DNA of 64,000 nucleotides from an uncultured Spirochaetales bacterium (GTDB lineage: Bacteria; Spirochaetota; Spirochaetia; Sphaerochaetales; Sphaerochaetaceae), in assembly GCA_934277975.1 (NCBI GenBank), contig CAKQWE010000003.1, forward strand, positions 12,419-76,418, written 5' to 3'. A program made the position numbers and the translations under genes. Positions 701-22,491 of the stretch are shown here, piece by piece (the stretch's first letter is position 1; each line of letters starts with the position of its first letter). Below the pieces are notes generated by a model. The model saw only the letters and a list, made by a program, of their open reading frames with translations. It had not been told where the DNA came from and ran no database searches.

Positions 701-763
701 AAAATCACGTAATGACAGTCTCCGTTGGATTGGCATGTATCGCGTTTTGAATGAGGACAAGTC

Positions 764-2295: not shown

Positions 2296-2474
2296 AACGA
2301 AAACAAAACCAACAAAGGCATCGGTTTTTGTTGCAATTTGTTGCGTTTGGGGTATACTATCGTCATGCAGTGGAGCGGTGGCGCTGGGAAGGCTCAGGGA
2401 CATCGGTCTAGGGCGGATGTTGCAGGTGATGCAAGTACTGCAAGCAAGAGAAGTTATCAGGAGAGGATTAGGAT

Positions 2475-3410: not shown

Positions 3411-3452
3411 TATCAGGCTTTAGGCCGATATCCTTGAATTCTGGGTTTTGAA

Positions 3453-4076: not shown

Positions 4077-4113
4077 AATGCGCTGGTACGTTGCAAGAAG
4101 GAGGCTCTTTGCC

Positions 4114-4365
4114 TTACTGGGAATCCCTCTTGTTTGCGTGGACCTTCATGAAGTCGACTGACTTCTGGAACTCGCGGATGAACTCTCCAAGGTCCTCTGG
4201 GTAGACGATTACACTCTGGCGGATGAAACGGCCTTCGTCTGCGGTGACTTTGCTCTCGACTATGTTCAGGTACATGTCGCCTTTGTAGTTCTCCTTGACA
4301 TTGAAGAAATAGGTTCTGTCGTTCGTTACGAACTTGGTTGAGAAAACTTCACCGCGCTGACCCAT
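4114..4365 (-). CDS. PUR-alpha-like nucleic-acid-binding protein (DUF3276 family)
   Basis: 83 aa with RTYFFNVKENYKGDMYLNIVESK, the PUR-repeat signature seen in spirochaete and Bacteroidetes DUF3276 proteins. Confidence 0.65.
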   Translation of the reverse strand: MGQRGEVFSTKFVTNDRTYFFNVKENYKGDMYLNIVESKVTADEGRFIRQSVIVYPEDLGEFIREFQKSVDFMKVHANKRDSQ

Positions 4366-4421
4366 AGGAAAACCCCTCCGCTATGATAGTGTATTCGCAA
4401 TCCGCACACGAATGCACGAGC

Positions 4422-4452
4422 TTGGAAAACAAAAAACCACGCATGAGCGTGG
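4422..4452 (-). terminator. Rho-independent terminator downstream of tRNA-Gly
   Basis: On the - strand: CCACGC-TCAT-GCGTGG hairpin (4437-4452) followed by TTTTTTGTTTT. Confidence 0.7.
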
Positions 4453-4457
4453 TCTTA

Positions 4458-4528
4458 AGCGCCCGACGGGAGTCGAACCCGCTTCTTCAGCTTGGAAGGC
4501 TGAGGTAATACCATTATACCACAAGCGC
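4458..4528 (-). tRNA. tRNA-Gly (anticodon UCC)
   Basis: Manual cloverleaf: acceptor GCGCTTG/CGGGCGC, anticodon stem TCAGC/GCTGA with loop CTTCCAA, T-arm GCGGG-TTCGACT-CCCGT. It is 71 nt and CCA is not encoded. Confidence 0.85.
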
Positions 4529-4541
4529 ACGTACGAACGTA

Positions 4542-4571
4542 TTTATACCCAATAAGACGGGAAAACGTCAA
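4542..4571 (-). promoter_or_regulatory. candidate sigma70-type promoter for tRNA-Gly
   Basis: On the - strand: TTGACG, an 18 nt spacer, then TATAAA, ending about 14 nt before the tRNA 5' end. Confidence 0.4.
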
Positions 4572-4661
4572 GTAGGGCCTGACAAAAAACAAATCCTTAT
4601 GCTATATTTCTCCTGTTTGGGAAGTTGCTCTCTAGTCGAGTTAGTTCTTTGTGAGGTGAAC

Positions 4662-7463
4662 GTGTTTTTAAAATCTGTGGAGCTTTATGGTTTCAAGTCC
4701 TTTGCGGATAGGACCAAATTCGAATTCTCGGACGGCATAACGTCGTTGCTTGGACCGAACGGCAGCGGAAAGAGCAATGTCGTCGACTCCATAAAGTGGG
4801 TTCTTGGAACCCAGGCCTCAAGTGCGATAAGGGCTGCAAAGAGGGAGGACGTCATCTTCAACGGTACGGACTTCAGAAAGCCAATGCCCATGTGCGAGGT
4901 CATCCTCACATTGAACAACGAAGAACATCAGCTGAACATAGATGCAACCGAGGTTGAGATAAAGAGAAGGCTGTTTCGCAACGGCGACAACGAATACTAC
5001 ATAAACCGCAACAGAGTGCTCCTTAGGAACGTCAAGGAGCTTTTCATGGACACCGGTGTTGGAAAGGCCTCCTACAGCATTCTGGAACAGGGAAAGATAG
5101 ACCAGATCCTGTCCCTCAAGCCAGAGGACAGACGCTACATATTCGAAGAGGCATCTGGAATAAGCCGTTTCAAGCAGCAGAGCGACGAGGCGGCCAAGAA
5201 GCTTCAGAAGACTGATGAGAACATGGCCCAGGTGGAGCTCCTCCTAAGGGAGGCCGAGAAGGTCTACAACTCAAGGAAGGGGCAGCTGGACAAGGTTCTC
5301 AAGCATAGGGAGCTTTCTGCTAGGAAGGAGACGTTGGAGGTTGAGCTTCAGCTGTCGTACCTTCAGTCCCTTACCAAGCTCAAGGATTTCAGGCAGGAGC
5401 AGCAGACCAAGCTTGAGGACGAAGCGGCTGCAATAGACGCCGTCATGGACACCGCAAGGGAGGGCCTTGACAGGCAGCGGAACGAACTGGAGGAGCTCAG
5501 ACTCAAGCGCGACAGCATAAGCGCAAACATGCATAGGAACGAAGAGAAGGTCAATTCCATAAACACTGAGCTTGACTTCTACAACGAAAGGTTCAACGAA
5601 GTGTCCCAGCGTACCAAGGATGCCAAGGCAAAGGCTCAGCAGGTGCAGGACAGGATGGAGAAGGACCGCCAGAGGCTTGAGGAGAAGCAGGCGTCGTTGG
5701 ATTCCACCTTGGAGAACATTCGCCTTACGGACCAGAGCATAGAGAGGGCCACTGAGGAGATAGAGAAGCTCAAGGCCGACAGGATCAGGCATCAGCTTGA
5801 CATAGACGACCTGAACCATGAAATAGAGGCTTTGTCCCAGGAGAGGGTCGGAATCACCCAGCAGATAAGCGACCTTGCAAACGACATAGCCAACAGGCTT
5901 GAGGAGAACATCAAGGGAAGCGGCTACAGCTCCGCTCTTAGGGCGAAGGCTGAGAAGAAGCTCTTCGAGGAGCTAAGCAAGGCCAAGAAGATACTTGGCG
6001 AGAGGATGGAGTTCCTTAGAAACCTTGCTACGGTCGATTTTGACCCAAAGGTGTTCCAACAGGCGCTTGACGATGCGGACGAGTCCCTTCTTGAGGAGCT
6101 TGACGAGATAAAGGGACTTTTCCAGGAGTACAGCGGTACGATTCCAACGTTCCTGGATGAGTTCGTATCGCCTCAGGGGACGCTTGCAAAGAAAGTGGAG
6201 TTGGACAACAGGCTTGAAAGTTCGTATGCAAAGGAGACGGACTGCCGCAACAGGATCCAGGATTTCAATGCGGAGATCGAGAGGCTTTCCAGAATGCTCA
6301 TCTTGAAGGAATCGGACTTGAAGGACCTTGAGATGGATCGTGTCCAGTTCAAGGCGCAGGCCGATTCCACGAAGAGCTACATCATGGACCTCAAGCAGAG
6401 CCTCCAGCAGATGGAGTTCGATTTCTCCGATGCCTCCCATTCGTTCGAGGCCGAGCAGAGCAAGGTCAACGAGGTCCTTGAGAAGATAGACGATGCCAAG
6501 AACCGCAAGAAGGAGATGTTCGAGGACATACGGGCCCTCAGGGACGAGGTGGATGCCCTCAACGTTGCAATAGAGGAGAAGAACTCCCAGATGCTGGCGC
6601 AGAACTCCCAGTTCCAGGACAAGTTCAACCGCAGGCAGCAGCTCATTGGGGAGATTGCGACGGGGCGCGAGAACATAAGGAGCCTTGGGGAGCAGATCCA
6701 GAAGATCTATACGGACTTCTTCGACAGTACTGGAAAGAGCCTTAGGGAGTTCAACGACCACGAGATAACGGAGGCCGTTGAGGACCTCAAGAACGAGCTT
6801 GAGACCGTGAAGAAGAGGATCCAGGACCTTGGCTACATAAACTACATGGCTGAGGACGAATACAACGAGGCAAAGAAGAACTTCGACTTCTACAGCAAGA
6901 ACATGGACGACCTCACAAAGGCCAAGGACGACCTTGAGGAGGTCATAGCGGAGATAAAGCGCCGCAGCGAGGAGATGTTCCTTGATACCTACAAGCAGAT
7001 TGCGGAGAACTTCCAGGAGATGTATACGACGCTCTTTGGAGGTGGAAGGGCTGAGCTTAGGCTCACGGACGACGACAATGTGCTTGAGTCCGGTATAGAC
7101 ATATTCGCCCAGCCGCCGGGAAAGAAGCTGTTGAACATGCAGCTCCTCTCTGGAGGAGAGCGTTCCATGACGGCCGTTGCACTTCTGTTTGCAACATATA
7201 TGGTCAAGCCGTCGCCGTTCTGTATCCTTGACGAGATAGACGCCGCCTTGGATGCAAGGAACATTGGTGCGTTCCTAAGGGTGCTTGAGAAGTTCGACGA
7301 CAAGAGCCAGTTCATCATAATCACCCACAACAAGAACACCGTAATGGGTTCCAACAGCCTTCTTGGTGTGACTCAGCAGGAGCTTGGAGTCTCCAAGATG
7401 ATAGGCTACAGGCTTGAGGACATCAAGGACATAAACAAGACCTATGATGAGCTCAAGGGTTGA
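4662..7463 (+). CDS. smc: chromosome segregation protein SMC
   Basis: N-terminus (GTG)FLKSVELYGFKSFADRT, Walker A GPNGSGKSN, long coiled coils, signature LSGGERS and Walker B FCILDEIDAALD. I moved the start to the GTG at 4662, preceded by GAGGTG at 4653-4658, because the ORF-track Met at 4599 adds a non-conserved 21 aa. Confidence 0.9.
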   Translation: MFLKSVELYGFKSFADRTKFEFSDGITSLLGPNGSGKSNVVDSIKWVLGTQASSAIRAAKREDVIFNGTDFRKPMPMCEVILTLNNEEHQLNIDATEVEIKRRLFRNGDNEYYINRNRVLLRNVKELFMDTGVGKASYSILEQGKIDQILSLKPEDRRYIFEEASGISRFKQQSDEAAKKLQKTDENMAQVELLLREAEKVYNSRKGQLDKVLKHRELSARKETLEVELQLSYLQSLTKLKDFRQEQQTKLEDEAAAIDAVMDTAREGLDRQRNELEELRLKRDSISANMHRNEEKVNSINTELDFYNERFNEVSQRTKDAKAKAQQVQDRMEKDRQRLEEKQASLDSTLENIRLTDQSIERATEEIEKLKADRIRHQLDIDDLNHEIEALSQERVGITQQISDLANDIANRLEENIKGSGYSSALRAKAEKKLFEELSKAKKILGERMEFLRNLATVDFDPKVFQQALDDADESLLEELDEIKGLFQEYSGTIPTFLDEFVSPQGTLAKKVELDNRLESSYAKETDCRNRIQDFNAEIERLSRMLILKESDLKDLEMDRVQFKAQADSTKSYIMDLKQSLQQMEFDFSDASHSFEAEQSKVNEVLEKIDDAKNRKKEMFEDIRALRDEVDALNVAIEEKNSQMLAQNSQFQDKFNRRQQLIGEIATGRENIRSLGEQIQKIYTDFFDSTGKSLREFNDHEITEAVEDLKNELETVKKRIQDLGYINYMAEDEYNEAKKNFDFYSKNMDDLTKAKDDLEEVIAEIKRRSEEMFLDTYKQIAENFQEMYTTLFGGGRAELRLTDDDNVLESGIDIFAQPPGKKLLNMQLLSGGERSMTAVALLFATYMVKPSPFCILDEIDAALDARNIGAFLRVLEKFDDKSQFIIITHNKNTVMGSNSLLGVTQQELGVSKMIGYRLEDIKDINKTYDELKG

Positions 7464-12085: not shown

Positions 12086-12107
12086 GTTCTATAGGTTTTC
12101 TTATACA

Positions 12108-12146
12108 GGACGGAAAAGACCGGTTGGTCTTCTCCGTCTTTTTTGT
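12108..12146 (+). terminator. Rho-independent terminator after rplS
   Basis: GGACGGAAAAGACC-GGTT-GGTCTTCTCCGTC hairpin followed by TTTTTTGT. Confidence 0.75.
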
Positions 12147-12156
12147 TTAGGGATGT

Positions 12157-12495
12157 ATGGATAAAGGGAAGCAGTCTGAACAAGTGGTATCGGCCTATCT
12201 GGAAAACCTTGGATATTCTGTCTTGGAAAGGAATTACAGGTGTAGGTTCGGTGAGGTGGACATCATTGCATCCAAGGATGGCGTGCTGTGTTTCGTGGAG
12301 GTCAAATCCCTCACGTCAAGGTGGGATGAAAGCGAGATTTCAAGGATGGTGGGCCCTGCCAAGATGAGGCGCATAAGGTTGACTGCAATCGATTATTTGA
12401 ATACTGTTGACCACAAGGGGCGCTTTGATAACACGAGGTTCGACGTCGCTACTGTGACAAATGGATGCGTCTCCTACTACGAAGGAGTTTTCTGA
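12157..12495 (+). CDS. yraN: YraN family (UPF0102) predicted endonuclease
   Basis: 112 aa with GYSVLERNYRCRFGEVDIIASKDGVLCFVEVKS, the typical YraN core. Its last 49 codons lie inside the left 162 bp repeat. Confidence 0.85.
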   Translation: MDKGKQSEQVVSAYLENLGYSVLERNYRCRFGEVDIIASKDGVLCFVEVKSLTSRWDESEISRMVGPAKMRRIRLTAIDYLNTVDHKGRFDNTRFDVATVTNGCVSYYEGVF

Positions 12496-12508
12496 TGGAT
12501 AACAGAAA
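12347..12508 (+). repeat. left copy of the 162 bp direct repeat (attL-like)
   Basis: Identical at every base to 18737-18898 in my manual comparison. Flanking bases differ (12346 a vs 18736 g; 12509 t vs 18899 g). Confidence 0.95.
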
Positions 12509-12614
12509 TCTCACGAAGCTTTTTTGTAGACAGTAAGCTTAAAGCTGTATTGTTTTGTATTGCATTATATTGAAATCTCTTTGAAATGCAACTTAAGTGT
12601 AGTATGCTAGCACT

Positions 12615-13580
12615 ATGGAAGGCGACAAACTTTTCAAACATGTTTATGATTTGTCTCCGCTTCTTCTCGATACACTGCTCAGAGATCGTACAACTGGCCG
12701 TTATATCCTTTGGATGACGAATAACTACGAACAGTATGGCTCTGGGTATGGGGAGCTCTGTGAAATTACTCCAAAACTCATACTTAGAGATTCAATGTCC
12801 ATTATCAAGCCTCGTAACGAGAAATCAGTTGAGGAACAAAGCATTCGAATAAAGGGGAAAGCTGAGGTTTTTACCCCCTCGTGGGTCTGTAACTTCCAGA
12901 ACAATCTTGTAGATGAAGCGTTCTTCGGTCGGAAAAACGTCTTCAACGTTTCCGAAGGCACAATGTGGACAGCAACCGATCACGTCGATTTTTGCGAGTA
13001 TGACTGGCGGAAATACGTCACTGCCTGTCGATTGGAAATTTCATGTGGCGAAGCTCCTTATTTGGTATCTCGCTATGATACGACTACAGGACATCCCATT
13101 GATATTCATAAACGCATAGGGTTGCTTGACCGCAAGCTACGTGTGGTTGATGAGAACTGTTCTAATCAAAACTGGCACTGCTGGGTGAAGAAGGCTTTTC
13201 AGTCCATCTACGGGTATGAATGGTCAGGGGATAATTTGTTTCTCGCAAGACAGAATCTGATGTTTACATACATGGATTACTTCATTGCGCATTTCGGCAG
13301 ATTCCCGGAAGAGGCGAAATTGTCAGAAATAGCAGAGATTATTTCGTGGAATATCTGGCAGATGGATGGTATCAGGTTTGTCGTTCCATGTTCTTGTCAT
13401 GAAGAGATTGTTTGCGAATCTCTGTTCGATGATGATGTGATCAAACGGCCATGCGAAGGGTGTATGACTGAAAACGTCTGCCGTCACAACGGTGTATACA
13501 GTAACATAAGGGACTGGAAAAAGAACGAAGTTGTATCGGCAGTCAGTCTAATAGGGGGGCCGAATGCCAAACGACATTGA
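12615..13580 (+). CDS. methyltransferase-like protein lacking motif IV, with a C-terminal Cys cluster; function unknown
   Basis: 321 aa. AEVFTPSWVCNFQNNLVD (aa 83-100) resembles gamma-class N6A-MTase motif X. LEISCGEAPYL (aa 140-150) resembles motif I. IYGYEWSGDNLFLARQNL (aa 198-215) resembles the HsdM-like xYGxExxxxxxxLAxxNL element. I found no (D/N)PP(Y/F) anywhere. There is a CSCH...C...CEGC...C cluster at aa 259-289. The ORF overlaps the next gene by 17 nt. Confidence 0.6.
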   Translation: MEGDKLFKHVYDLSPLLLDTLLRDRTTGRYILWMTNNYEQYGSGYGELCEITPKLILRDSMSIIKPRNEKSVEEQSIRIKGKAEVFTPSWVCNFQNNLVDEAFFGRKNVFNVSEGTMWTATDHVDFCEYDWRKYVTACRLEISCGEAPYLVSRYDTTTGHPIDIHKRIGLLDRKLRVVDENCSNQNWHCWVKKAFQSIYGYEWSGDNLFLARQNLMFTYMDYFIAHFGRFPEEAKLSEIAEIISWNIWQMDGIRFVVPCSCHEEIVCESLFDDDVIKRPCEGCMTENVCRHNGVYSNIRDWKKNEVVSAVSLIGGPNAKRH

Positions 13581-16500
13581 ATTCAACTCGGCGTTCTCGA
13601 ATGTTCTCATATATGTATTCAGAATCAATGATGATGTCCACAAGGACTATCTCAAGATTGGAAAGACAACAATCAAGGCTGACAAGGCTACCGTTCCGAT
13701 GCTTGTACCCAACTGTTCGTTGCTTAACAAGGCAGCAAAAGCCAGGATTGACCAGTACACCAAGACTGCAAACATCACCTATGATTTGCTTCATACGGAG
13801 CTGGCCATAAGGCCGAAGAAGGATGATCCGACACGCAATGAGTATTTCACGGATTCAGATGTCCATAAGGTTCTGATTCATTCAAATATCAAACGCAAAG
13901 AGACCGATGGAGCCCGGGAATGGTTCAGGTGCAATCTTGAAACAGTGAAGAATGCCATCAGAGCAGCCAAACATCATGAAAACTCTCTGACACCAGGAGA
14001 AATCTCCATCAGTCGTGATCCTATAGTGTTCAGGCCAGAACAGCAGCAGGCCATTGCTGACACCAAAAAGTGTTTCAGAACCCACAACAAGATGCTGTGG
14101 AATGCAAAAATGCGTTTTGGTAAGACGTTGACATCCCTGCAGGTTGTCAAAGATTTGAAGTTCCGTAGGACAATCATTATCACTCATCGGCCTGTTGTGA
14201 AGAATTCCTGGGGTGAGGATTTTGAAAAGGTTTTCAACAACTCTTCAGACTGGCATTATATCAAGAAGGATGAGACTACGCCTGATGTTGAGCCTGAGGT
14301 CAACGGATACATCACAGGGGATAAGCCTTTCGTTTTGTTTGCCTCAATGCAGGATTTGCGCGGGTCCATGACTGTTGGAGGCAAGTTTGACAAGAATGAA
14401 CTGATATTCAAGACTGAGTGGGACTGCGTGATTGTTGACGAGGCCCATGAGGGTACGAAGACATCTCTGGGCGACAACGTACTGAAGACCATTATAAAGG
14501 CCGATTCATATGGTAAGACGAAGGTCTTATACCTCTCAGGAACCCCGTTCAATCTTGTCGAGGACTTTGATGAGGTAGAAGTCTTTACGTGGGACTATGT
14601 AATGGAGCAGTCAAGTAAGGCTAATTGGGATATCTGTCACAGGCTGGATTCCAACCCGTATGAAAATCTTCCAATGCTTTACATCTACACGTACGATCTA
14701 GCGCAAGAGATTCGTGGATTCATAGAGACTGAAGACAAATCCTTTAACTTCAAAGAGTTTTTCAGAGTTTGGACAGGAAAGGCCAAACAGGATGGTAAGG
14801 TTCTCAATGACGACAGCCTCATTGGTCGTTTCGTTCATGAAGATGAGGTGAAATCTTTTCTCAATCTGCTGGTAAACAAGGATGCCAATTCGAACTATCC
14901 GTATTCATGTGAAGTCTACCGCGATTATTTCAGACACTCGCTCTGGATTCTTCCTGGTGTGAAGGAAGCCAAAGCTCTCAGCGAGCTCCTTCGAGAACAT
15001 CCAATCTTCAGAGGTTTTGGAATCGCTAATGTTGCCGGTGATGGAGATGAAGAACAGGAAAGCAAAGATGCCTTAAAAGAGGTTAACGGAAAAATCACCA
15101 ATCACCCGGAGAAAACCTACACAATTACACTGTCATGTGGCCGCCTGACTACAGGTGTGACAGTCCCACCATGGACGGCGGTTCTCATGCTTTCAGGTTC
15201 ATATTCGGTCTCAGCATCCAACTACCTTCAAACGATATTTCGTGTCCAGTCTCCTGCCAATATTGATGGCCGAATTAAAGACAAGTGTTTCGTCTTCGAT
15301 TTTGCTCCCGATCGTACGCTGAAGATGGTCGCGGAGGCTGGAAAGCTCTCCACTCGACCTGGAAAGAATGATGAATCTTCAGAGAAACAAATGAGAGATC
15401 TCCTGAATTTCTGTCCAGTCATCTCCATTAAGGGATCTCTCATGAAGGCATATGATGTAGATTCGATGCTCCAGCAGATCAAGCACATCTATGCTGAACG
15501 TGTTGTAAGAAATGGATTCGACGATCCAAAACTCTACAACGACAAGTTGCTCCATCTGACAGACATCGAGAACGAAAAGTTCAAAGGCTTGAAGGAAATC
15601 GTTGGCGCATCGAAAGCCGTAGACATCAACAGGAACATTACGCTCTCCAATGTTGGACTGACGAAGGAAGAACGTGAGCTTATCGATAAGGCTGATAAAG
15701 GGAAGAAATCTGAACTGAGCGATGAAGATAAGGAACGACTTGAGAAATTGAAAAAGGCCAAGGAGGAACGCAGTAAGGCAATCAGTATCCTTCGTGCTAT
15801 TTCCATAAGAATTCCGCTCTTGATCTATGGGTCTGAAATTCCGTTCGATGAGGATATCTCTATTGAGAATTTCATCGACCTTGTGGACGATCAATCTTGG
15901 GAGGAATTCATGCCAAGCAAGGTAACAAAGGATCTGTTCCGCCAGTTTATTGAGTATTACGACAAGGACATTTTCATCGTTGCAGGGAAGTCCATCAGAG
16001 CTCTCGTGAAAGGTGCAGACGAACTAGATCCAACGACGCGCATCAAGCGCATCGCCGATGTGTTTAGGATGTTCAAGAACCCAGACAAAGAGACCGTTTT
16101 GACTCCGTGGCGAGTGGTTAACATGCATATGTCTAATACTCTTGGTGGTTGGGATTCCTTTGCCGAGGATAATCGGGAACTGCTTGAAAATCCAAGGTTC
16201 GTGGATAACGGCGATGTTACAAGGAAGTGTTTGTCTCCTGATTCCAAAGTTTTGGAAATCAATTCGAAATCTGGTTTGTATCCATTGTATATAACATATT
16301 CGATTTTTAGGGAGCGATGCAAGAATATTCCTGATAGCATCCTTACTCCAGATAAAATGGACGAACTGTGGAGTCTTACGGTTGCCGAGAATGTGTATGT
16401 TGTATGCAAGACCAAGATGGCAAGAGCGATAACTAAGCGCACATTGCTTGGATACGAAAAGGGTAGGATTAATGCTCATGCATTTGAGGATTTAATCAAC

Positions 16501-17613
16501 CAGTTCAAAAGCAAGGCAGATCAGGTGTGTGAGAGAATCAAGGGAAGCAGCTTCTGGGAAAAGAAAGGAGTGAATAAAGATATGAAGTTCGATGCAGTTG
16601 TAGGAAATCCTCCGTACGATGAAGAAGGTAACAACACAAGAAAAACTCCAATTTATCAATACTTTTATGATGCAAGTTTCAAGCTTGCTCCAATTGTATC
16701 TTTAATTACACCTGCAAGATTCCTTTTTGACGCAGGACAAACATCTTCTGAATGGAATCATAAAATGCTTGCTGACGAGCATTTTAAAGTTGTTCGGTTC
16801 TTTGTAAATTCACAAGAAGTTTTTCCATCAGTCAGCATAAAAGGTGGTGTTGCAATAACGTATTGGTGTGAATATGAGAAGTTTGGAGCAATCGGGACTT
16901 TTACTTCTTTCAGTGAATTGAACAACATTCTTCAGAAGTCGACTTCTGATATCGAAGGGAAATCTACCATGGAGTCGATTATTCAGGCGCAAGGACTTTA
17001 TAGGTTCTCTGATGTATTCATGAATAAGCATCCTGAGATATCTGAGAAAATGGGTAAAGGAACCGGAGCAAAAATTACTTCTAAAATTGTTGATCAAATG
17101 GATAACTTGTTCCCAGAAAGTTCTGACAACATCGATGGAGATGCTGTCAAGCTTCTAATACGAACGAAAACTGGAAAGAGAGCATATCGATACATAAAAA
17201 GGGAGTATTTGCAGAATAACAGATATCTTGATTCATATAACGTGATTGTTCCAGAGTCAAATGGAACAGGTGCTATCGGAGAGGTGTTATCGACTCCCCT
17301 GATCGGGGAGCCCCTGATCGGGCATACAGATACCTTCCTGAGTATTGGTGCTTTTTCGACAGAAGAAGAAGCTTCCAATTGTATGAAGTATATCAAAACA
17401 CGATATGCAAGAGTGATGCTGGGTATCCTTAAGGCAACACAGCATAATTCGCCTTCCACATGGAAATACGTTCCGATGCAGAATTTCACCGCTTCTTCCG
17501 ACATCGACTGGTCACAGTCGGTGTCGGAAATCGACCAACAACTCTACAAAAAGTACAATCTGTCACCGTATGAAATCGCATTCATTGAAGAGAATGTTCA
17601 GCCCATGGAGTGA
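13564..17613 (+). CDS. 1349 aa multidomain protein: T5orf172/GIY-YIG-like N-terminus + SF2 (SNF2/res-like) helicase + Eco57I/TaqI_C-like NPPY methyltransferase module
   Basis: aa 14-130: LKIGKT...DVHKVL...GAREWF (T5orf172-like). Helicase motifs: AKMRFGKT (aa 181-188), VIVDEAHEG (289-297), LYLSGTPF (322-329), RLTTGVTVP (527-535), QTIFRVQS (556-563). MTase-like motifs: TVLTPWRVVNMHM (844-856), VLEINSKSGLYPLY (896-909, degenerate motif I), FDAVVGNPPY (1009-1018; NPPY at nt 16606-16617). The C-terminal ...TDTFLSIGAFSTEEEASNCMKYIKTRYARVML...LYKKYNLSPYEIAFIEENV resembles TaqI_C-type target-recognition tails. Confidence 0.75.
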   Translation: MPNDIEFNSAFSNVLIYVFRINDDVHKDYLKIGKTTIKADKATVPMLVPNCSLLNKAAKARIDQYTKTANITYDLLHTELAIRPKKDDPTRNEYFTDSDVHKVLIHSNIKRKETDGAREWFRCNLETVKNAIRAAKHHENSLTPGEISISRDPIVFRPEQQQAIADTKKCFRTHNKMLWNAKMRFGKTLTSLQVVKDLKFRRTIIITHRPVVKNSWGEDFEKVFNNSSDWHYIKKDETTPDVEPEVNGYITGDKPFVLFASMQDLRGSMTVGGKFDKNELIFKTEWDCVIVDEAHEGTKTSLGDNVLKTIIKADSYGKTKVLYLSGTPFNLVEDFDEVEVFTWDYVMEQSSKANWDICHRLDSNPYENLPMLYIYTYDLAQEIRGFIETEDKSFNFKEFFRVWTGKAKQDGKVLNDDSLIGRFVHEDEVKSFLNLLVNKDANSNYPYSCEVYRDYFRHSLWILPGVKEAKALSELLREHPIFRGFGIANVAGDGDEEQESKDALKEVNGKITNHPEKTYTITLSCGRLTTGVTVPPWTAVLMLSGSYSVSASNYLQTIFRVQSPANIDGRIKDKCFVFDFAPDRTLKMVAEAGKLSTRPGKNDESSEKQMRDLLNFCPVISIKGSLMKAYDVDSMLQQIKHIYAERVVRNGFDDPKLYNDKLLHLTDIENEKFKGLKEIVGASKAVDINRNITLSNVGLTKEERELIDKADKGKKSELSDEDKERLEKLKKAKEERSKAISILRAISIRIPLLIYGSEIPFDEDISIENFIDLVDDQSWEEFMPSKVTKDLFRQFIEYYDKDIFIVAGKSIRALVKGADELDPTTRIKRIADVFRMFKNPDKETVLTPWRVVNMHMSNTLGGWDSFAEDNRELLENPRFVDNGDVTRKCLSPDSKVLEINSKSGLYPLYITYSIFRERCKNIPDSILTPDKMDELWSLTVAENVYVVCKTKMARAITKRTLLGYEKGRINAHAFEDLINQFKSKADQVCERIKGSSFWEKKGVNKDMKFDAVVGNPPYDEEGNNTRKTPIYQYFYDASFKLAPIVSLITPARFLFDAGQTSSEWNHKMLADEHFKVVRFFVNSQEVFPSVSIKGGVAITYWCEYEKFGAIGTFTSFSELNNILQKSTSDIEGKSTMESIIQAQGLYRFSDVFMNKHPEISEKMGKGTGAKITSKIVDQMDNLFPESSDNIDGDAVKLLIRTKTGKRAYRYIKREYLQNNRYLDSYNVIVPESNGTGAIGEVLSTPLIGEPLIGHTDTFLSIGAFSTEEEASNCMKYIKTRYARVMLGILKATQHNSPSTWKYVPMQNFTASSDIDWSQSVSEIDQQLYKKYNLSPYEIAFIEENVQPME

Positions 17614-17616
17614 CTT

Positions 17617-17796
17617 ATGCCAAAAAAGACGAAAGACAGCGTAGCTATCTCCATGAGATTGGAGAAGACTGTTTATGAGAGGCTGAGAGCTTATGCAGAA
17701 GATAAGGGACAAACGTATACGACCGCCCTTGAACGTATTATCACAGCTTACCTAGATGAGCGAGAACAGAAACTAAAGGAAAAAGAGGAAAGGTAA
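17617..17796 (+). CDS. 59 aa ribbon-helix-helix (CopG/Arc/MetJ-like) protein
   Basis: Not in the ORF track because it is under 60 aa. Translation: MPKKTKDSVAISMRLEKTVYERLRAYAEDKGQTYTTALERIITAYLDEREQKLKEKEER. This gives a beta strand (ISMRLEK) followed by two helices. GGAG lies 6 nt upstream of the ATG. Its TAA overlaps the next ATG (TAATG at 17794-17798). Confidence 0.6.
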   Translation: MPKKTKDSVAISMRLEKTVYERLRAYAEDKGQTYTTALERIITAYLDEREQKLKEKEER

Positions 17797-18689
17797 TGGG
17801 AATATTCTACAACATATCCGTTGAAGGGGATGACTCAAACGGTATCAAGGTTATCGAGAACCCAACGAAGACTTTAAAGGCTCTTTTGTTTCCTAGAGAG
17901 TGTATACACGAGTTCAACCTTCGACCAGAGGCAGAACAGGCAGGTGTATACATTCTCTACAACTCGATGGATAGGAATGAACAGCCCCACATCTATATTG
18001 GACAGACTGGATACGGAATCACATCTAGATTGTCGAACCACAACAGGACGAAGGATTTTTGGAACCAGGCACTTGTTTTCGTTGAGAAGGGTGATTTCCT
18101 TAACCTAAATGGCTCTCATGCAAAGATAATCGAATCTAGGCTCATCTCTAAAGCAGGGGAATGCGGTGCTGTTGTTATGGAAAACAACACTGGATCGAGA
18201 GCTCCAAGAGTACAACCTTCAGATCAAATGGCTGCCGATACTTGGGCAGAAGAAGTTGTGACTATCACTAGACTTCTTGGCCTTGCATTCTTCCATGGAA
18301 CTAAATCTCAGATTCCAGATGCTAGTACAGCAGCTATCTCCGTTCAGGCTGTCAAAAGTGATGTTCCAAATGGAACATACACACTTACCAAAAATAAGAA
18401 GGTCGATGGGAAAACGATAAAGGCGACTGCTGTAGTTAAAGATGGAGAGTGGGTTATTAAGAAAGGCTCTGTTTTGAGTGTTTGTGAACATCCTAAAGTT
18501 TCAGAAGGGAATAAGGAACTGAGGAAAAAGCTGGAGCTTGATTTTCAAGGCAACCTTCTTGAGGATTTCAATCTTGGTAGTGTGTCGCCAAGCACCGCAG
18601 GATGCGTTGTTTTAAACCAACCGTCATGCAATGGTTGGACTAGCTGGTTTACAGAGGATAATAAACCCATAGACATATTTAGAAATTAA
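17796..18689 (+). CDS. GIY-YIG nuclease-family protein with a DUF4357-like C-terminal domain
   Basis: GVYILYN...HIYIGQTGYGITSRLSNH...FWNQALVF...AKIIESRLI matches the GIY-YIG core. The C-terminal SPSTAGCVVLNQPSCNGWTSWFTEDNKPIDIFR matches my recollection of DUF4357. Confidence 0.7.
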   Translation: MGIFYNISVEGDDSNGIKVIENPTKTLKALLFPRECIHEFNLRPEAEQAGVYILYNSMDRNEQPHIYIGQTGYGITSRLSNHNRTKDFWNQALVFVEKGDFLNLNGSHAKIIESRLISKAGECGAVVMENNTGSRAPRVQPSDQMAADTWAEEVVTITRLLGLAFFHGTKSQIPDASTAAISVQAVKSDVPNGTYTLTKNKKVDGKTIKATAVVKDGEWVIKKGSVLSVCEHPKVSEGNKELRKKLELDFQGNLLEDFNLGSVSPSTAGCVVLNQPSCNGWTSWFTEDNKPIDIFRN

Positions 18690-18736
18690 AAATTGGATGC
18701 AAAAGAGTTCAACTGTTCTGTCCTTATATGCAGCAG

Positions 18737-18885
18737 TGGTGGGCCCTGCCAAGATGAGGCGCATAAGGTTGACTGCAATCGATTATTTGAATACTGTTGA
18801 CCACAAGGGGCGCTTTGATAACACGAGGTTCGACGTCGCTACTGTGACAAATGGATGCGTCTCCTACTACGAAGGAGTTTTCTGA
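18737..18885 (+). pseudogene. duplicated 3' fragment of yraN (last 49 codons)
   Basis: It encodes VGPAKMRRIRLTAIDYLNTVDHKGRFDNTRFDVATVTNGCVSYYEGVF, identical to the end of yraN. ORF 18697-18885 fuses it to unrelated island sequence. The YraN catalytic core is missing. Confidence 0.85.
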
Positions 18886-18898
18886 TGGATAACAGAAA
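18737..18898 (+). repeat. right copy of the 162 bp direct repeat (attR-like)
   Basis: Identical to 12347-12508. Confidence 0.95.
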
Positions 18899-19283
18899 GA
18901 AAAGAAAGCCAAAGTCTAAGAGATCGGTCCCTGCTGCTCCTCAGCAGAAACCCAGGTCCAGAATGATATTCGATGACGTGGAGGTCCCTCAGGTGGTAGA
19001 GCCAAGGCCTGACTGCAGTATATGCGGCCAGCCCATAGAGTCCATCATAGAGGCCATAAGCGAGCCAGACGGAGGCCTCAGTCATTTCGACTGCGTGCTT
19101 GAGAAGCTCAGGGAGCGCGAGCATGTACAGGAGCCGGATTCCATTTCATACATAGGACATGGGAATTTCGCCGTAGTCACCAAGGACGAAGAGGGCAGGT
19201 ACTCCATAAAATACAGAATCCAGTATGAGAGCAACGATGACTATGCCAACGTGAAGAGGCAGGTGGAGGAGTCCAAGAAATGA
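18885..19283 (+). CDS. hypothetical protein (basic N-terminus, CxxC...HxxC element)
   Basis: I prefer the ATG at 18885, because TGATG overlaps the yraN-type stop, over the track start at 18855. Translation begins MDNRKKRKPKSKR, with ...CSICGQPIES...SHFDCVLEKL further in. It is followed immediately by coaD. Confidence 0.6.
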   Translation: MDNRKKRKPKSKRSVPAAPQQKPRSRMIFDDVEVPQVVEPRPDCSICGQPIESIIEAISEPDGGLSHFDCVLEKLREREHVQEPDSISYIGHGNFAVVTKDEEGRYSIKYRIQYESNDDYANVKRQVEESKK

Positions 19284-21120: not shown

Positions 21121-22491
21121 GGCAGTCATTTGATTGTAAATTACAAGTGCTTGCTTTGTAAGTATTTCCTTGTCGTTTAGAGTAGGGTAGTCCACCACCA
21201 TTTCAAGAAGCTTTCCAAGAACATCACCCATGGCTTTGGACTTGGGGATGCCTGCTTTTGCAAGGTCCTCGCCTGTGACGGCAAGGTCCTTGAGTGTCAT
21301 TGGCTGGTCCTCAAGTTCCTTTATCCTCTTCATGAAGGCCTCGTACTCATCCGTATTGGGTGCGCCTGTGGATGCTATCTGGTCGCAGCGCTGCAGTTCG
21401 AACAGCATATCAAGGTTCTGTCTGCCAACTCTGCGTATGAAACGCTTTACGGCACCATCCGTCCAGTCTGGGGTGTAGCGGGTCATGTGCTCAGCAATGA
21501 TAAGTCCAACGTCGTCAATGGTCTTGTTGGAGCATTTCAGACGACGCAGGATGTCCTTTGCCATCTTTGAGCCTTGGACATCGTGGCCGTGAAAGCGCAT
21601 CATTCCGTACTGGTTGAAAGACATTGTCGAAGGCTTTCCTATGTCGTGTAGAAGGGCGGCAAGCCTTACGGCGAGGCCGTAGTCGTTTGCAGCCGCTGCA
21701 TCTATGCAGTTGTATGAGTGCTCAAGGACATTGCAGGAGCCAACCTTGTCCTGTTTTATCGTCCTACAAGCAGTGAGTTCTGGAAGTATCACATCAAGGA
21801 TTCCTGTCTGTTCGAGTATTGAAAGTCCAACTGACGGAACCTTTGTCATAATCGTTTTGGACAATTCGTCGTATATCCTTTCCTGCGAAACGTTTGCAAT
21901 GGTAGGGGCAAGCTCCTTGGCAGCTTGGAAGGTTTCCTCTTCAGGCTTGAAGTTGAGCTTTGAACAGAAGCGGGCAAGCCTCATGAGCCTTAGGGCATCC
22001 TCCTTGAAACGTTCACGGGGGGTTCCTATTGCACGCACAAGGCCTTTTTCAAGGTCTCCAAGTCCGTCGAAGTCGTCCGTGACGTTGCCTTGTATGCAGT
22101 CCGCAGCCAGGGCGTTTATTGTGAAGTCCCTGCGCGAGAGGTCTTCGTGGAGATCCGTTATGTACGTGACATTGTCTGGGTGGCGGCCGTCCGAGTAGTC
22201 GGATTCGCAACGGAACGTCGTGACTTCGTAGCTTTCACCCCTAAAGAGAACCGTAACCGTTCCGTGCTTTATGCCTGTTGGGATGACCTTCCTGAACAAC
22301 GAGACGACTTGCTGAGGCTTTGCGTCCGTACAGAAGTCGTAGTCGCTGTTTTCCGTTCCAAGGAAATAATCGCGCACGGCTCCACCTACGATGTACAGTC
22401 TGTAGCCGTTTTCTGCAAATATCTTTGCAAAGGCCTTTATCTCATCTGAAACAGGGTATCTCTTCATGGCTTTGAATATAGCAGAAAACAT
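21115..22491 (-). CDS. cca: CCA-adding enzyme / tRNA nucleotidyltransferase with an HD domain
   Basis: YIVGGAVRDYFLG, DYDFCT, RRDFTINALA, and an HD region (LLHDIGKP). Confidence 0.85.
   Translation of the reverse strand: MFSAIFKAMKRYPVSDEIKAFAKIFAENGYRLYIVGGAVRDYFLGTENSDYDFCTDAKPQQVVSLFRKVIPTGIKHGTVTVLFRGESYEVTTFRCESDYSDGRHPDNVTYITDLHEDLSRRDFTINALAADCIQGNVTDDFDGLGDLEKGLVRAIGTPRERFKEDALRLMRLARFCSKLNFKPEEETFQAAKELAPTIANVSQERIYDELSKTIMTKVPSVGLSILEQTGILDVILPELTACRTIKQDKVGSCNVLEHSYNCIDAAAANDYGLAVRLAALLHDIGKPSTMSFNQYGMMRFHGHDVQGSKMAKDILRRLKCSNKTIDDVGLIIAEHMTRYTPDWTDGAVKRFIRRVGRQNLDMLFELQRCDQIASTGAPNTDEYEAFMKRIKELEDQPMTLKDLAVTGEDLAKAGIPKSKAMGDVLGKLLEMVVDYPTLNDKEILTKQALVIYNQMTAV

What the first reader, a model, noticed from the sequence alone, without database searches (positions are those of the whole stretch)
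12347..18898. 6.2 kb insertion in the yraN 3' end, bracketed by perfect 162 bp direct repeats, with no recombinase gene
Positions 12347-12508 and 18737-18898 are identical base for base in my manual comparison. The repeat comprises the last 49 codons of yraN, its stop, and the first 14 nt (ATGGATAACAGAAA) of the downstream gene, whose start overlaps the yraN stop (TGATG). The left copy completes an intact yraN. The right copy supplies the native start of the 18885-19283 gene. Both flanking genes therefore survive the insertion. By-products are a 13-codon stub (12495-12536) and a yraN tail fused to island DNA (ORF 18697-18885). A 162 bp duplication is far too long for a transposase target-site duplication. 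It looks like attL/attR of a site-specific integration, or like a single-crossover (Campbell) insertion of a circle carrying the yraN tail. However, none of the four island ORFs resembles a tyrosine or serine recombinase or a transposase. Perfect identity of the copies argues for a recent event. Sampled sequence lines inside the island look more A+T rich than the flanks, but I did not compute this.
Basis: partly seen in the sequence, partly recalled or inferred. Interest (0 to 1): 0.75.

Follow-up and report, generated by a model that had tools for sequence, protein, structure and literature searches.

The report
Restriction-modification cassette flanked by duplicated target
A 6.2 kb foreign block of anti-phage (restriction-modification) genes sits between two identical 162 bp copies of the host's own yraN gene end; this layout is already known for such genes, which carry no insertion enzyme and appear to be lost and regained through the cell's ordinary recombination.

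Summary
Positions 12347-12508 and 18737-18898 are identical over 162 nt. They bracket a 6,228 bp block with 43.0% G+C against 50.4% for the rest of the window, and none of its four genes resembles a recombinase. Fourteen contigs from related strains carry the empty site, yraN followed directly by the next gene with one repeat copy. One of them is 99.8% identical to the window.

The cargo is two defence modules. The first is a methylase-like gene plus a 1349 aa nuclease-like/helicase/Eco57I-methylase fusion. The second is a ribbon-helix-helix gene plus a GIY-YIG/DUF4357 gene.

The layout meets every published criterion for [quoted passage not shown] (Nobusato 2000; Furuta 2010). It is therefore a new member of a known kind.

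First, the founding insertion is not recent. An 88%-identical copy of the island has the same junctions, carries a sister lineage's yraN-tail allele, and differs by dS of about 0.5. The perfect repeat identity therefore reflects gene conversion or re-integration. Second, two independent assemblies contain the path island end, one repeat, island start. That is the junction of a circle or tandem array, but it could be a graph artefact.

Interest is moderate.

The parts
12157..12495 (+). yraN (UPF0102 family predicted endonuclease), intact. Its last 149 nt, including the stop codon, lie in the left repeat.
   Evidence: Pfam PF02021 E 3.4e-22. ORF. Orthologues at 87-91% identity sit in empty-site contigs.
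12347..12508 (+). Left copy of the 162 bp direct repeat (R): yraN tail, the TGATG stop/start overlap and 14 nt of the next gene.
   Evidence: 100% identical to 18737-18898. A single copy is present in 14 empty-site contigs.
12495..12536 (+). 13-codon stub: the duplicated start of the downstream gene running into island DNA. A by-product of the insertion.
   Evidence: Read directly from the sequence.
12509..18736 (+). Inserted island, 6,228 bp. All four genes are co-oriented with the host operon. It has no terminal inverted repeats, and no terminator-like site lies on the + strand between the last island gene and the right repeat.
   Evidence: G+C 43.0% against 50.4%; tetranucleotide outlier. 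Absent from empty-site contigs. Inverted-repeat and terminator scans.
12581..12608 (+). Promoter-like site (TTGAAA-16-TATGCT) upstream of the first island gene. It lies in the non-coding island end that is conserved in L093.
   Evidence: Consensus scan only; the number of sites found is not above the shuffled expectation. Conservation seen in the alignments. Weak evidence.
12615..13580 (+). 321 aa methyltransferase-like companion protein with no Pfam family. Its end overlaps the start of the next gene by 17 nt.
   Evidence: PADLOC MTase_II E 4.5e-104. No Pfam or NCBIfam hit. AlphaFold model pLDDT 88 matches predicted viral 'N-6 DNA methylase' structures at E 1.2e-11. No significant PDB match. 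Adjacent to the fusion gene in about 75 of 80 related loci.
13564..17613 (+). 1349 aa fusion protein: N-terminal T5orf172 (GIY-YIG-like) domain, SF2 helicase (ResIII), Eco57I-type N6-adenine methylase (NPPY motif) and a C-terminal region. It is a Type IIG / Type ISP-like restriction-modification enzyme.
   Evidence: Pfam Eco57I 2.5e-27, ResIII 1.9e-14, T5orf172 1.1e-3 (borderline). PADLOC REase_MTase_IIG 3.1e-48. 230 relatives across many phyla. No PDB sequence match.
17617..17796 (+). 59 aa ribbon-helix-helix protein. It is a probable transcription regulator or antitoxin-like partner of the next gene.
   Evidence: Pfam RHH_10 2.1e-4 and NCBIfam RelB-like 1.8e-3, both below the curated cut-offs. 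Conserved next to the fusion gene in L093, L099, L101 and L094.
17796..18689 (+). 297 aa GIY-YIG nuclease-like protein with a C-terminal DUF4357/RAMA region. It belongs to candidate defence family PDC-S14.
   Evidence: PADLOC PDC-S14 2.5e-51. Pfam DUF4357, RAMA and GIY-YIG hits are all below the cut-offs. Linked to the RM pair only in the closest relatives L093, L099 and L101, not in the 80 distant loci.
18697..18885 (+). 62 aa chimeric ORF: 14 codons of island DNA fused in frame to the duplicated yraN tail. A by-product. Its ATG lies in a 36 bp segment that L093 lacks.
   Evidence: Called as a gene in the metagenome scaffold.
18737..18898 (+). Right copy of the 162 bp direct repeat. It supplies the native upstream context and start of the downstream gene.
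18885..19283 (+). Downstream host gene (132 aa, no known family), intact. Next come coaD, rpmF, acpP and rnc.
   Evidence: Orthologues directly follow yraN in all empty-site contigs.

Best explanation
This is a restriction-modification/defence cassette inserted 'with long target duplication'.

Foreign DNA of 6,228 bp lies between two copies of a 162 bp piece of the host chromosome. It carries a methylase-like gene, a nuclease-like/helicase/methylase fusion enzyme, and a ribbon-helix-helix plus GIY-YIG/DUF4357 module. The duplicated piece spans the yraN stop codon and the start of the next gene, so both host genes and the operon stay intact.

The cassette has no recombinase of its own. The two long identical repeats are substrates for the host's general recombination, and the proposed consequences are:
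- It deletes the cassette precisely, producing the empty-site strains.
- It keeps or makes the two copies identical, by gene conversion or by excision and re-integration through the repeat.
- It lets empty-site strains regain the cassette, either by recombination through the flanks or by single crossover of an excised circle.
- It may produce tandem arrays or circles.

The founding insertion is old. It is shared, with the same junctions, by two host lineages that differ by about 9-11% in DNA sequence. It persists as a rare presence/absence polymorphism. It is probably stabilised by the addictive, post-segregational-killing behaviour of restriction-modification systems.

Shown here: the architecture, the empty sites, the foreign composition, the lack of a recombinase, the shared junctions, the co-divergence, and the excess of flanking repeats in this enzyme family.

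Inferred: that host homologous recombination is the agent, that conversion or re-integration explains the repeat identity, and how the first duplication arose.
For: - Perfect 162 nt repeats bracket the island.
- Composition is foreign: G+C 43.0% against 50.4%, and the tetranucleotide distance is twice the largest value elsewhere in the window.
- R and M homologues are present and no recombinase family is hit. No recombinase is called within about 10 kb on either side.
- There are no terminal inverted repeats and no tRNA nearby.
- The empty site with one repeat copy is seen in L002 (3 mismatches in 1860 nt), L115 (96.8%) and the sister-lineage contigs L105-L114, L116 and L117.
- L093 carries the same island at 87.9% nt identity. 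Its left junction is at the same position to within one ambiguous base and its right junction is homologous, apart from a 36 bp indel. Its repeat matches the native yraN tail of the empty-site contig L109 at 163 of 164 positions.
- Island dS is 0.51-0.56. Neighbouring core genes range from 0.05 to 0.67: coaD 0.55, the downstream 132 aa gene 0.67, yraN 0.40.
- Closer relatives of the cassette sit at other sites. L099 is in a mobilisable element with a Mob_Pre relaxase. L094 lies beside CRISPR-Cas. L101 lies between IS elements. L100 has a diverged repeat of about 160 bp at another gene's tail. The yraN site is therefore not a fixed target of the cassette.
- Flanking direct repeats of 40 bp or more occur at 5 of 41 relatives of the RM pair and at 0 of 40 control segments. 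In L006 the two RM genes alone are flanked by a 47 bp duplication of an isocitrate/isopropylmalate dehydrogenase gene tail.
- Published criteria and precedent are in PMC2853133.
Against: - No read-level data were available. The integrated path crosses a repeat longer than typical short reads, so it rests on the assembler's repeat resolution.
- The agent of recombination is inferred, not observed. The host species and its recombination or competence genes were not identified.
- The same nucleotide-level junction in two lineages is also what a site-specific mechanism acting in trans would give.
- Only 5 of 41 relatives have flanking repeats. At least three of those five are tRNA-linked or contain a resolvase, so the class signal for this enzyme family is modest.
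- How a 162 bp duplication first arises is not explained by this model, nor by the literature.
Confidence: 0.6

Rival explanations
1. The island is a non-autonomous site-specific integrative element. The 162 bp repeats would be attL and attR, and integration and excision would be carried out by a tyrosine or serine recombinase encoded elsewhere: a helper element, or a host enzyme as for Xer-exploiting elements. On this view the two diverged island variants entered each host lineage independently at the same site.
For: The junction positions are the same in the window and in L093, although the islands differ by 12%. Each variant carries its host lineage's allele of the repeat. Other relatives of the enzyme pair do ride in recombinase-bearing or tRNA-linked elements: L046 has a resolvase, and L013, L033 and L057 are tRNA-linked. 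L099 has a relaxase and an excisionase-like gene.
Against: No recombinase lies in the island or within about 10 kb of it. Identity runs over the whole 162 bp and stops abruptly, rather than forming a short core with diverged arms. The island dS of about 0.5 lies inside the range of the core genes, as expected for co-divergence after a single insertion. No other cargo was seen at this site in 14 empty-site contigs. The closest other cassettes sit at unrelated sites. The site lies in a stretch of uniform positive GC skew, so it is not at a replication terminus where a dif site would be.
Confidence: 0.15
2. The island is a static relic. A single ancient illegitimate insertion is now immobile. The repeats stay identical only through intrachromosomal gene conversion. 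Empty sites are either ancestral or one-way deletions, and there is no re-acquisition, circle or amplification.
For: The junctions are shared between lineages and the dS is comparable to core genes. The island has no mobility or replication genes. The circle-like contigs can be explained as graph artefacts, because the repeat is longer than k.
Against: With only one-way loss, a presence/absence polymorphism would be unlikely to persist in both lineages over dS of about 0.5. Empty-site and island-bearing sequences share the same unusual repeat allele within the sister lineage (L109 and L093), and they are 99.8% identical in the window lineage (L002). Both facts point to recent gain or loss events. 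Two independent assemblies give the island-repeat-island path.
Confidence: 0.15
3. The second repeat copy is an assembly artefact. Either it is not real, or the island is an extrachromosomal circle carrying one repeat copy that the assembler threaded into an empty chromosomal site.
For: The assembly graph of 'chromosome plus circle sharing R' is identical to that of the integrated form. L089 and L093 show the circle-type path. L087 is a loop contig.
Against: The island encodes no replication function. The integrated path is seen in a 134 kb scaffold. The index lists three blocks with contigs of 50-200 kb, and the proteins are also on record from NCBI. An assembler that resolves a 162 bp repeat normally does so with read pairs.
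Confidence: 0.05

Closest known systems
Restriction-modification gene insertion with long target duplication (Nobusato et al. 2000, Gene 259:99; Furuta, Abe and Kobayashi 2010, NAR 38:2428, PMC2853133)
   Same: R and M homologues lie in a short insert. It is flanked by a long direct duplication of host sequence, 30 to more than 400 bp in published cases. A related genome has an empty site with one copy. There are no mobility genes. The repeats often span a stop or start codon so the target genes survive, and insertion into an operon has been described. G+C differs from the host.
   Different: The host is an uncultured human-gut bacterium, not one of the published taxa. The cargo is a helicase-methylase fusion with a companion methylase-like gene plus an extra GIY-YIG/DUF4357 module. 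Here the same insertion is traceable in two diverged host lineages, with each carrying its own allele of the repeat. I did not see that reported in the parts of the paper I read.
Amplification of an RM gene complex flanked by long direct repeats (BamHI in Bacillus subtilis; Sadykov et al. 2003, cited as ref. 84 in PMC2853133), and the 'virus-like life cycle' hypothesis
   Same: An RM unit between long direct repeats can form tandem arrays through the repeats. A tandem array or an excised circle has the junction island end, one repeat, island start, which is what contigs L089 and L093 show.
   Different: The published case was an engineered laboratory construct. Here the evidence is only assembly paths from metagenomes, where the repeat is longer than k. 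No copy-number data are available.
hpyIIRM cassette of Helicobacter pylori (Aras et al. 2001, Mol Microbiol; recalled from my own knowledge, not checked here)
   Same: An RM cassette flanked by direct repeats of about 80 bp. Strains lacking it have a single copy. It is lost by recombination between the repeats and regained by natural transformation.
   Different: A different organism, enzyme type and repeat. Competence of the present host is unknown.
H47 genomic island of E. coli (Azpiroz and Lavina 2017, PMC5426353)
   Same: A small island without a site-specific recombinase gene. It excises by recombination between its flanking direct repeats, using host functions.
   Different: In that case the repeats are short and excision is RecA-independent. 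The cargo is a microcin system, not restriction-modification.
Type ISP (LlaGI, LlaBIII) and Type IIG (Eco57I, MmeI) restriction-modification enzymes, as a comparison for the cargo only
   Same: A single polypeptide with nuclease-like, SF2 helicase-like ATPase, gamma-class N6-adenine methylase and C-terminal regions in that order, as in Type ISP. A separate companion methylase accompanies it, as in the Eco57I system.
   Different: The N-terminal domain is T5orf172/GIY-YIG-like and only a borderline hit, not the Mrr-type nuclease of Type ISP. There is no detectable sequence match to any solved structure, LlaGI and LlaBIII included. Activity and target are unknown.

Membership tests
[quoted passage not shown] 2010) | The inserted segment contains both restriction and modification gene homologues. 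| tested here: met
   PADLOC MTase_II 4.5e-104 and REase_MTase_IIG 3.1e-48. Pfam Eco57I and ResIII. The nuclease domain call (T5orf172) is borderline.
[quoted passage not shown] 2010) | The insert is shorter than 20 kb. | tested here: met
   6,228 bp between the repeats.
[quoted passage not shown] 2010) | The flanking direct repeat is longer than 30 bp and is a duplication of the target. A related genome has one copy that aligns with both repeats and lacks the insert. | tested here: met
   162 bp at 100% identity. The single copy in L002 differs from both window copies at one position. L105-L117 also have a single copy.
[quoted passage not shown] 2010) | There are no mobility-related genes in or beside the unit, and the repeat is not a tRNA gene or a multicopy element. 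| tested here: met
   No integrase, transposase or resolvase family is hit. There is no tRNA within 7 kb. The repeat occurs only twice in the window. Its genome-wide copy number is not testable here.
Site-specific integrative element (integrase-type genomic island) | An element-encoded tyrosine or serine recombinase. | tested here: not met
Site-specific integrative element (integrase-type genomic island) | Recombination at a defined core within the att sites. | not testable with these tools
   This needs excision products or crossover mapping. The two repeat copies are identical, so they carry no information on the crossover point.
DNA transposon / insertion sequence | A transposase, terminal inverted repeats, and a short target duplication of fixed length. 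| tested here: not met
   No transposase. No terminal inverted repeats. The duplication is 162 bp.
Xer-exploiting integrative element (IMEX) | Integration at the chromosomal dif site near the replication terminus, flanked by dif-like sites of about 28 bp. | tested here: not met
   The site lies inside a ribosomal-protein/yraN operon, with positive GC skew on both sides and no skew switch. The repeat is 162 bp of coding sequence. No dif model was run.
Type ISP restriction-modification enzyme (cargo) | A single polypeptide with an Mrr-family nuclease, SF2 ATPase, gamma N6-adenine methylase and target-recognition domain. It translocates on DNA using ATP and cleaves on head-on collision. | tested here: inconclusive
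   The domain order of helicase then methylase is met. The N-terminal domain is T5orf172-like, not Mrr. There is no sequence match to LlaGI or LlaBIII in the PDB. The biochemistry is not testable here.

The most novel reading that the evidence does not exclude
The cassette may be a self-sufficient mobile element without a recombinase. It would cycle between an integrated form and a circular or tandemly amplified form through its 162 bp target duplication. That is the 'virus-like life cycle' proposed for restriction-modification systems, whose release step has never been observed.

Contigs L089 and L093 would then be the first natural sightings of the released or amplified form. L089 is a MEGAHIT contig carrying the window-type island. 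L093 is a Logan contig carrying the 88% variant. It is a closed 6.35 kb cycle with no incoming branch from the yraN body.

The excess of flanking repeats in this enzyme family would then reflect DNA breakage by the enzyme itself promoting duplicative insertion.
Probability: 0.2. Interest if true: 0.65.

Novelty: new member of a known kind. Interest (0 to 1): 0.4.

Why it matters
How restriction-modification and other defence genes move when they carry no recombinase is still unsolved. 'Insertion with long target duplication' has been documented repeatedly, but never explained mechanistically.

This locus is a clean natural case with several useful properties:
- The repeat is long and perfect.
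- Near-identical empty-site strains exist in the same human-gut populations.
- A diverged sister copy has the same junctions.
- Public read sets may contain the circle or tandem junction.

These properties make it a practical system for testing whether such cassettes are lost, regained and amplified by host recombination alone. They also allow measurement of concerted evolution of the flanking repeats. Otherwise the finding is an ordinary defence-island polymorphism.

Tried and rejected
1. Transposon: rejected. There are no terminal inverted repeats and no transposase, and the duplication is far too long.
2. tRNA- or tmRNA-targeting island: rejected. The nearest tRNA genes are at 4458 and 62019.
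3. dif/Xer element: rejected on position and repeat length.
4. Homing by the GIY-YIG nucleases: considered, but homing does not create flanking duplications and nothing tests it here.
5. Search for the island's left end in JGI metagenomes: 0 hits. A scan for the yraN / next-gene junction gave 3 contigs, all empty sites.
6. Search for other cargo at the same site: none in 14 contigs.
7. Search for the donor. The best non-yraN-site relatives of the fusion protein are 84-85% identical in protein and about 75% in DNA, and the DNA similarity covers coding sequence only. The plasmid collection gave only 68-71% partial DNA matches on lactic-acid-bacteria plasmids. Viral contigs gave only 42-54% protein relatives. 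No donor was identified.
8. Naming the organism failed. Cluster look-up returned no names, and the species' representative genome did not appear among the loci carrying the enzyme. The samples are human gut metagenomes (Hadza and others, by record names).
9. PDB sequence searches returned nothing useful for the three larger island proteins. A PDB fold search for the 321 aa protein gave no significant match.
It is therefore unknown whether they also carry the circle-type junction.


Full report
OBSERVATION

The repeat finder returns two copies of 162 nt, at 12347-12508 and 18737-18898, identical at every position. The sequence occurs nowhere else in the 64 kb window. The chance expectation for such a repeat is about 6e-89.

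- The repeat begins at the second base of yraN codon 64. It runs through the last 48 codons and the stop, crosses the TGATG stop/start overlap, and ends 14 nt into the next gene.
- The left copy completes yraN (12157-12495; Pfam UPF0102, E 3.4e-22).
- The right copy supplies the start of the 132 aa gene at 18885-19283.
- The by-products are a 13-codon stub (12495-12536) and a 62 aa chimeric ORF (18697-18885).

The 6,228 bp between the repeats has 43.0% G+C against 50.4% for the rest of the window. No other 6.2 kb window falls below 48.4%. The island's tetranucleotide distance from the rest of the window is 0.344, against a maximum of 0.167 elsewhere. The host context is ffh-rpsP-KH-rimM-trmD-rplS-yraN-[island]-132 aa gene-coaD-rpmF-acpP-rnc.

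CARGO

All four island genes are co-oriented with the operon.

1. 12615-13580 encodes a 321 aa protein with no Pfam or NCBIfam family. It matches PADLOC 'MTase_II' strongly (E 4.5e-104). An AlphaFold model built on 52 homologues is confident (pLDDT 88, pTM 0.89). It matches predicted viral 'N-6 DNA methylase' structures (E 1.2e-11). It has no significant PDB match; the best hits, at E 0.38, are PglX, LlaGI and DrdV.
2. 13564-17613 encodes a 1349 aa fusion protein. It has a borderline T5orf172 (GIY-YIG-like) N-terminal domain, a ResIII/SF2 helicase and an Eco57I-type methylase. It also matches PADLOC 'REase_MTase_IIG'.
3. 17617-17796 encodes a 59 aa ribbon-helix-helix protein. The hits are weak.
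4. 17796-18689 encodes a 297 aa GIY-YIG/DUF4357-RAMA protein of candidate defence family PDC-S14 (E 2.5e-51).

None of the four resembles an integrase, resolvase or transposase. No such family is recorded for the called genes within about 10 kb on either side. The island has no terminal inverted repeats. No terminator-like site lies on the + strand between its last gene and the right repeat. The nearest tRNA genes are at 4458 and 62019.

The first two genes form a conserved pair. In 80 loci from many phyla that encode a 43-58% relative of the fusion protein, about 75 have the methylase-like gene immediately upstream. None has the last two island genes. The island is therefore two modules joined together.

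EMPTY SITE

A look-up of the exact yraN protein found L002, a 1,876 bp Hadza gut contig. It runs trmD-rplS-yraN and continues straight into the downstream gene with a single repeat copy. It differs from the window at 3 of 1860 positions, one of them inside the repeat at 12499.

A look-up of a common orthologue of the downstream gene returned ten distinct places from 23 contigs read. All have rplS-yraN-downstream gene-coaD with one copy and no insert. These contigs are about 91-92% identical to the window upstream of the site and about 89-90% downstream.

A pattern scan of JGI metagenomes found three more contigs, at 96.8%, 91% and 91% identity. All are empty sites.

No other cargo was seen at this site. 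The island is thus a rare insertion in a lineage whose normal state is the empty site.

WHAT KIND OF THING THIS IS

The literature search led to Furuta, Abe and Kobayashi (2010, PMC2853133), who extended Nobusato et al. (2000). They define 'insertion with long target duplication' for restriction-modification systems by four features:
- R and M homologues are present in the insert.
- The insert is shorter than 20 kb.
- The flanking direct repeat is longer than 30 bp.
- A related genome has an empty site whose single copy aligns with both repeats, with no other mobile-element genes.

They found cases for Types I to IV in several phyla, with repeats from about 46 to more than 400 bp. They noted that the repeats often span a start or stop codon, which leaves the target gene intact, and that insertion into operons occurs. 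The present locus meets each criterion (see the membership table).

The paper gives no mechanism. It suggests that DNA breakage by the enzymes may be involved. It also proposes a 'virus-like' cycle of insertion with duplication, amplification through the repeats (shown experimentally for BamHI), and release, which has never been observed.

IS THE PATTERN A PROPERTY OF THIS ENZYME FAMILY?

Among the 80 genome loci, 41 have at least 2.5 kb on both sides of the gene pair. Five of these have a direct repeat of 40 bp or more bracketing the pair. None of 40 same-size control segments placed in the flanks of the same loci has one.

Inspection shows a mixture:
- L006 (a Spirochaetales MAG) has only the two RM genes. 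They lie between 47 bp copies (45 of 47 identical) of the tail of an isocitrate/isopropylmalate dehydrogenase gene. It is a second clean case without a recombinase.
- L046 contains a small resolvase.
- L057 and L033 involve tRNA sequence. So does L013, which lay outside the 2.5 kb test.
- L029 has a diverged 54 bp repeat.

Outside the 2.5 kb test there are two further cases. L049 is a 14 kb defence island between perfect 61 bp repeats that carry the start of a gene. L100 encodes a 76% relative of the fusion protein and has a repeat of about 160 bp, 76.5% identical, that overlaps the tail of a tRNA-U5-methyltransferase-like gene.

The signal is real but modest. This enzyme pair also travels in ordinary mobile elements.

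HISTORY OF THE INSERTION

A search of the large protein collection found closer relatives of the fusion enzyme, at 92, 85, 84, 76 and 70% identity.

The relatives at 84-85%, 76% and 70% sit at unrelated sites:
- L099 has the same four-gene cassette inside a segment with a Mob_Pre relaxase and an excisionase-like gene.
- L094-L098 have the pair plus the ribbon-helix-helix gene beside a type I-F CRISPR-Cas locus.
- L100 is described above.
- L101 has the four genes between IS elements, with the GIY-YIG gene split by an IS256-type transposase.

DNA similarity of L099 and L094 to the window is confined to coding sequence, 12664-18647 and 12667-17789 respectively. The yraN site is therefore not a fixed target of the cassette.

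The 92% relative, L093 (Logan assembly of SRR22034759, 6,383 bp), is different. It is the same island at 87.9% nt identity, including the non-coding left end. It has the following features:
- Its left junction is at the same position, after GATARCAGAAA, to within one ambiguous base.
- Its right junction is homologous, except that the window has an extra 36 bp there.
- It ends in a yraN tail.

That tail is only 86.6% identical to the window's. It matches the native yraN tail of the empty-site contig L109, from the sister lineage, at 163 of 164 positions. It shares a block of variants that the other nine sister contigs lack.

Synonymous divergence between the two island variants is 0.51-0.56 for the three larger genes. 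Between the window and the sister lineage, the less codon-biased neighbouring core genes give 0.30-0.67: coaD 0.55, the downstream gene 0.67, yraN 0.40, rnc 0.30. Ribosomal protein genes give 0.05-0.08.

The simplest reading is one old insertion that has since diverged together with its hosts. A very long-standing association, in which each variant carries its own host's allele of the repeat, fits equally well.

If the right-hand yraN tail had drifted freely over that time, dozens of differences would be expected in 148 nt. None is seen. The two copies have therefore been homogenised, either by gene conversion or by excision and re-integration through the repeat. Alternatively, the present copy was regained recently from a conspecific donor.

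Empty-site and island-associated sequences are nearly identical within each lineage (L002 against the window; L109 against L093). This points to recent gain or loss events in both.

CIRCLE OR TANDEM JUNCTIONS

Three short contigs bear on this question.

- L087 (MEGAHIT, k=141; 6,510 bp) is the island with 141 nt of the repeat at each end. L004, from the same assembly, starts with the last 141 nt of the repeat. This is the expected graph break and says nothing either way.
- L089 (MEGAHIT assembly ERZ27287290; 3,283 bp) runs from 15985 through the island's right end. It then crosses one repeat copy and continues into the island's left end as far as 12877.
- L093 begins and ends with the same 30 nt, which is k-1 for Logan's k=31. 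It contains the whole repeat between the island's right and left ends. Its break lies exactly at the repeat's right boundary. There is no break where the yraN body should join.

The island end-repeat-island start path is what a circle or a tandem array would give. It requires the chromosomal junction k-mers to be absent, or much rarer than the island junction k-mers.

The caveat is serious. The repeat is longer than k in both assemblers, so neither path is supported by a k-mer spanning the whole repeat. L089 is short, which suggests low coverage. The two further contigs reported as similar to L089 could not be inspected. I rate a real circular or amplified form at roughly 35-45%. Read mapping would settle it.

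MECHANISM

Shown:
- A foreign RM/defence cassette lies between long identical copies of host sequence.
- Host genes are preserved.
- No recombinase is present.
- Empty sites exist in near-identical strains.
- The same junctions occur in a diverged lineage.

Inferred, at about 0.6 confidence overall: host general recombination acting on the 162 bp repeats and on the flanks accounts for precise loss, for repeat homogenisation, and for re-acquisition. Re-acquisition would be either by flank-mediated replacement or by Campbell-type insertion of an excised circle. Persistence despite easy deletion is plausibly helped by post-segregational killing by the restriction-modification system, an established property of such systems that was not tested here. 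The ribbon-helix-helix plus nuclease pair may also contribute.

The origin of the first duplication is unexplained. There are two candidates. One is duplicative joining of linear DNA at staggered breaks or at a broken replication fork. The other is aberrant excision that captured the yraN tail on a circle, followed by a single crossover into an intact site. The sequence does not discriminate between them.

Rivals:
- A recombinase acting in trans (0.15). It is favoured by the identical junctions. It is disfavoured by the lack of any candidate enzyme, by the co-divergence, and by the cassette's unrelated sites elsewhere.
- A static relic kept uniform by gene conversion alone (0.15).
- An assembly artefact or mis-threaded episome (0.05).

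VERDICT

[quoted passage not shown] It is not a new mobility mechanism.

It has two features of some value. One is trans-lineage persistence, with lineage-specific but internally identical repeats. The other is the possible natural circle or tandem junctions, which would make the long-standing 'release/amplification' hypothesis directly testable on public reads.

Interest is 0.4.

Noticed in passing
L089 (ENA ERZ27287290 k141_87898), equivalent to window 15985-18898 joined to 12347-12877: A metagenome contig runs from the island's right end, through one repeat copy, into the island's left end. This is the junction of an excised circle or a tandem array. Two further contigs reported as 'similar' could not be retrieved.
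   Followed up: partly
L093 (Logan SRR22034759_16085), 1-6383: An 88%-identical copy of the island assembled as a closed cycle with one yraN-tail copy. The two ends overlap by 30 nt (k-1). The break lies exactly at the repeat's right boundary, and no branch comes in from the yraN body.
   Followed up: partly
L109:8854-9015 compared with L093:6219-6383: One empty-site contig of the sister lineage carries the same unusual yraN-tail allele as the L093 island (163 of 164 identical). The other nine sister contigs have different alleles. This fits a strain that either lost or could receive that island.
   Followed up: partly
window 12420-12470 and its equivalents in L105-L114; proteins P0121-P0141: The C-terminal part of YraN (roughly residues 85-105) is hypervariable among close lineages, with several distinct alleles. 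Its dS and dN are higher than in the neighbouring ribosomal protein genes.
   Followed up: no
window 18694-18729: A 36 bp segment at the island's right end is absent from L093. It supplies the ATG of the 62 aa chimeric ORF that reads through the duplicated yraN tail up to the TGATG overlap. It may or may not restore translational coupling to the downstream gene.
   Followed up: no
window 12615-13580: The conserved 321 aa partner protein has no Pfam or NCBIfam family and no NPPY/DPPY-type motif. Its invariant motifs are FTPSW and EISCGEAPY. The predicted fold is confident, has no significant PDB neighbour, and matches only predicted viral 'N-6 DNA methylase' models. Whether it is an active methylase is open.
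   Followed up: partly
L006:6790-6836 and 12095-12140: In a Spirochaetales MAG, the two-gene RM pair alone is flanked by a 47 bp duplication (45 of 47 identical) of the tail of an isocitrate/isopropylmalate dehydrogenase gene. No recombinase is present. It is a second clean case of the same architecture.
   Followed up: partly
L049:7643-7703 and 21859-21919: A 14 kb defence island lies between perfect 61 bp direct repeats that contain the start of a gene, about 170 bp from a tRNA-Thr gene. It holds the RM pair, a PNP_UDP/receiver-domain protein, an RloB plus AAA_21 pair and a 1122 aa ORF. No integrase was found among the ORFs tested.
   Followed up: partly
L100:8713-8870 and 16950-17107: A 76% relative of the fusion enzyme lies in an 8 kb insert, together with a 403 aa protein and a radical-SAM-like protein. 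The insert is flanked by a repeat of about 160 bp, 76.5% identical, that overlaps the tail of a tRNA-U5-methyltransferase-like gene.
   Followed up: no
L099:3587-16157: The same four-gene cassette (85% fusion protein) sits in a segment with a Mob_Pre relaxase, an AAA_14/DUF4143 gene and an HTH_17/Cox-like gene. This is probably a mobilisable element and a possible vehicle for the cassette.
   Followed up: no
L101:9184-11413: In a 70% relative of the cassette, the GIY-YIG/DUF4357 gene is split by an IS256-family (Transposase_mut) insertion. The whole unit lies next to other IS elements.
   Followed up: no
L094:1-14233: An 84% relative of the RM pair plus the ribbon-helix-helix gene lies directly downstream of a type I-F CRISPR-Cas locus (Csy1-4, Cas3). 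An integrase gene lies about 9 kb further on.
   Followed up: no
L007, L015, L022, L023, L030, L042, L043, L048, L065, L072: Many genome-collection contigs carrying this RM pair are only 5-6.5 kb long and barely extend beyond the two genes. Assemblies therefore often break at the module's borders, as expected for strain-variable or repeat-flanked cassettes. None of them has terminal overlaps.
   Followed up: partly
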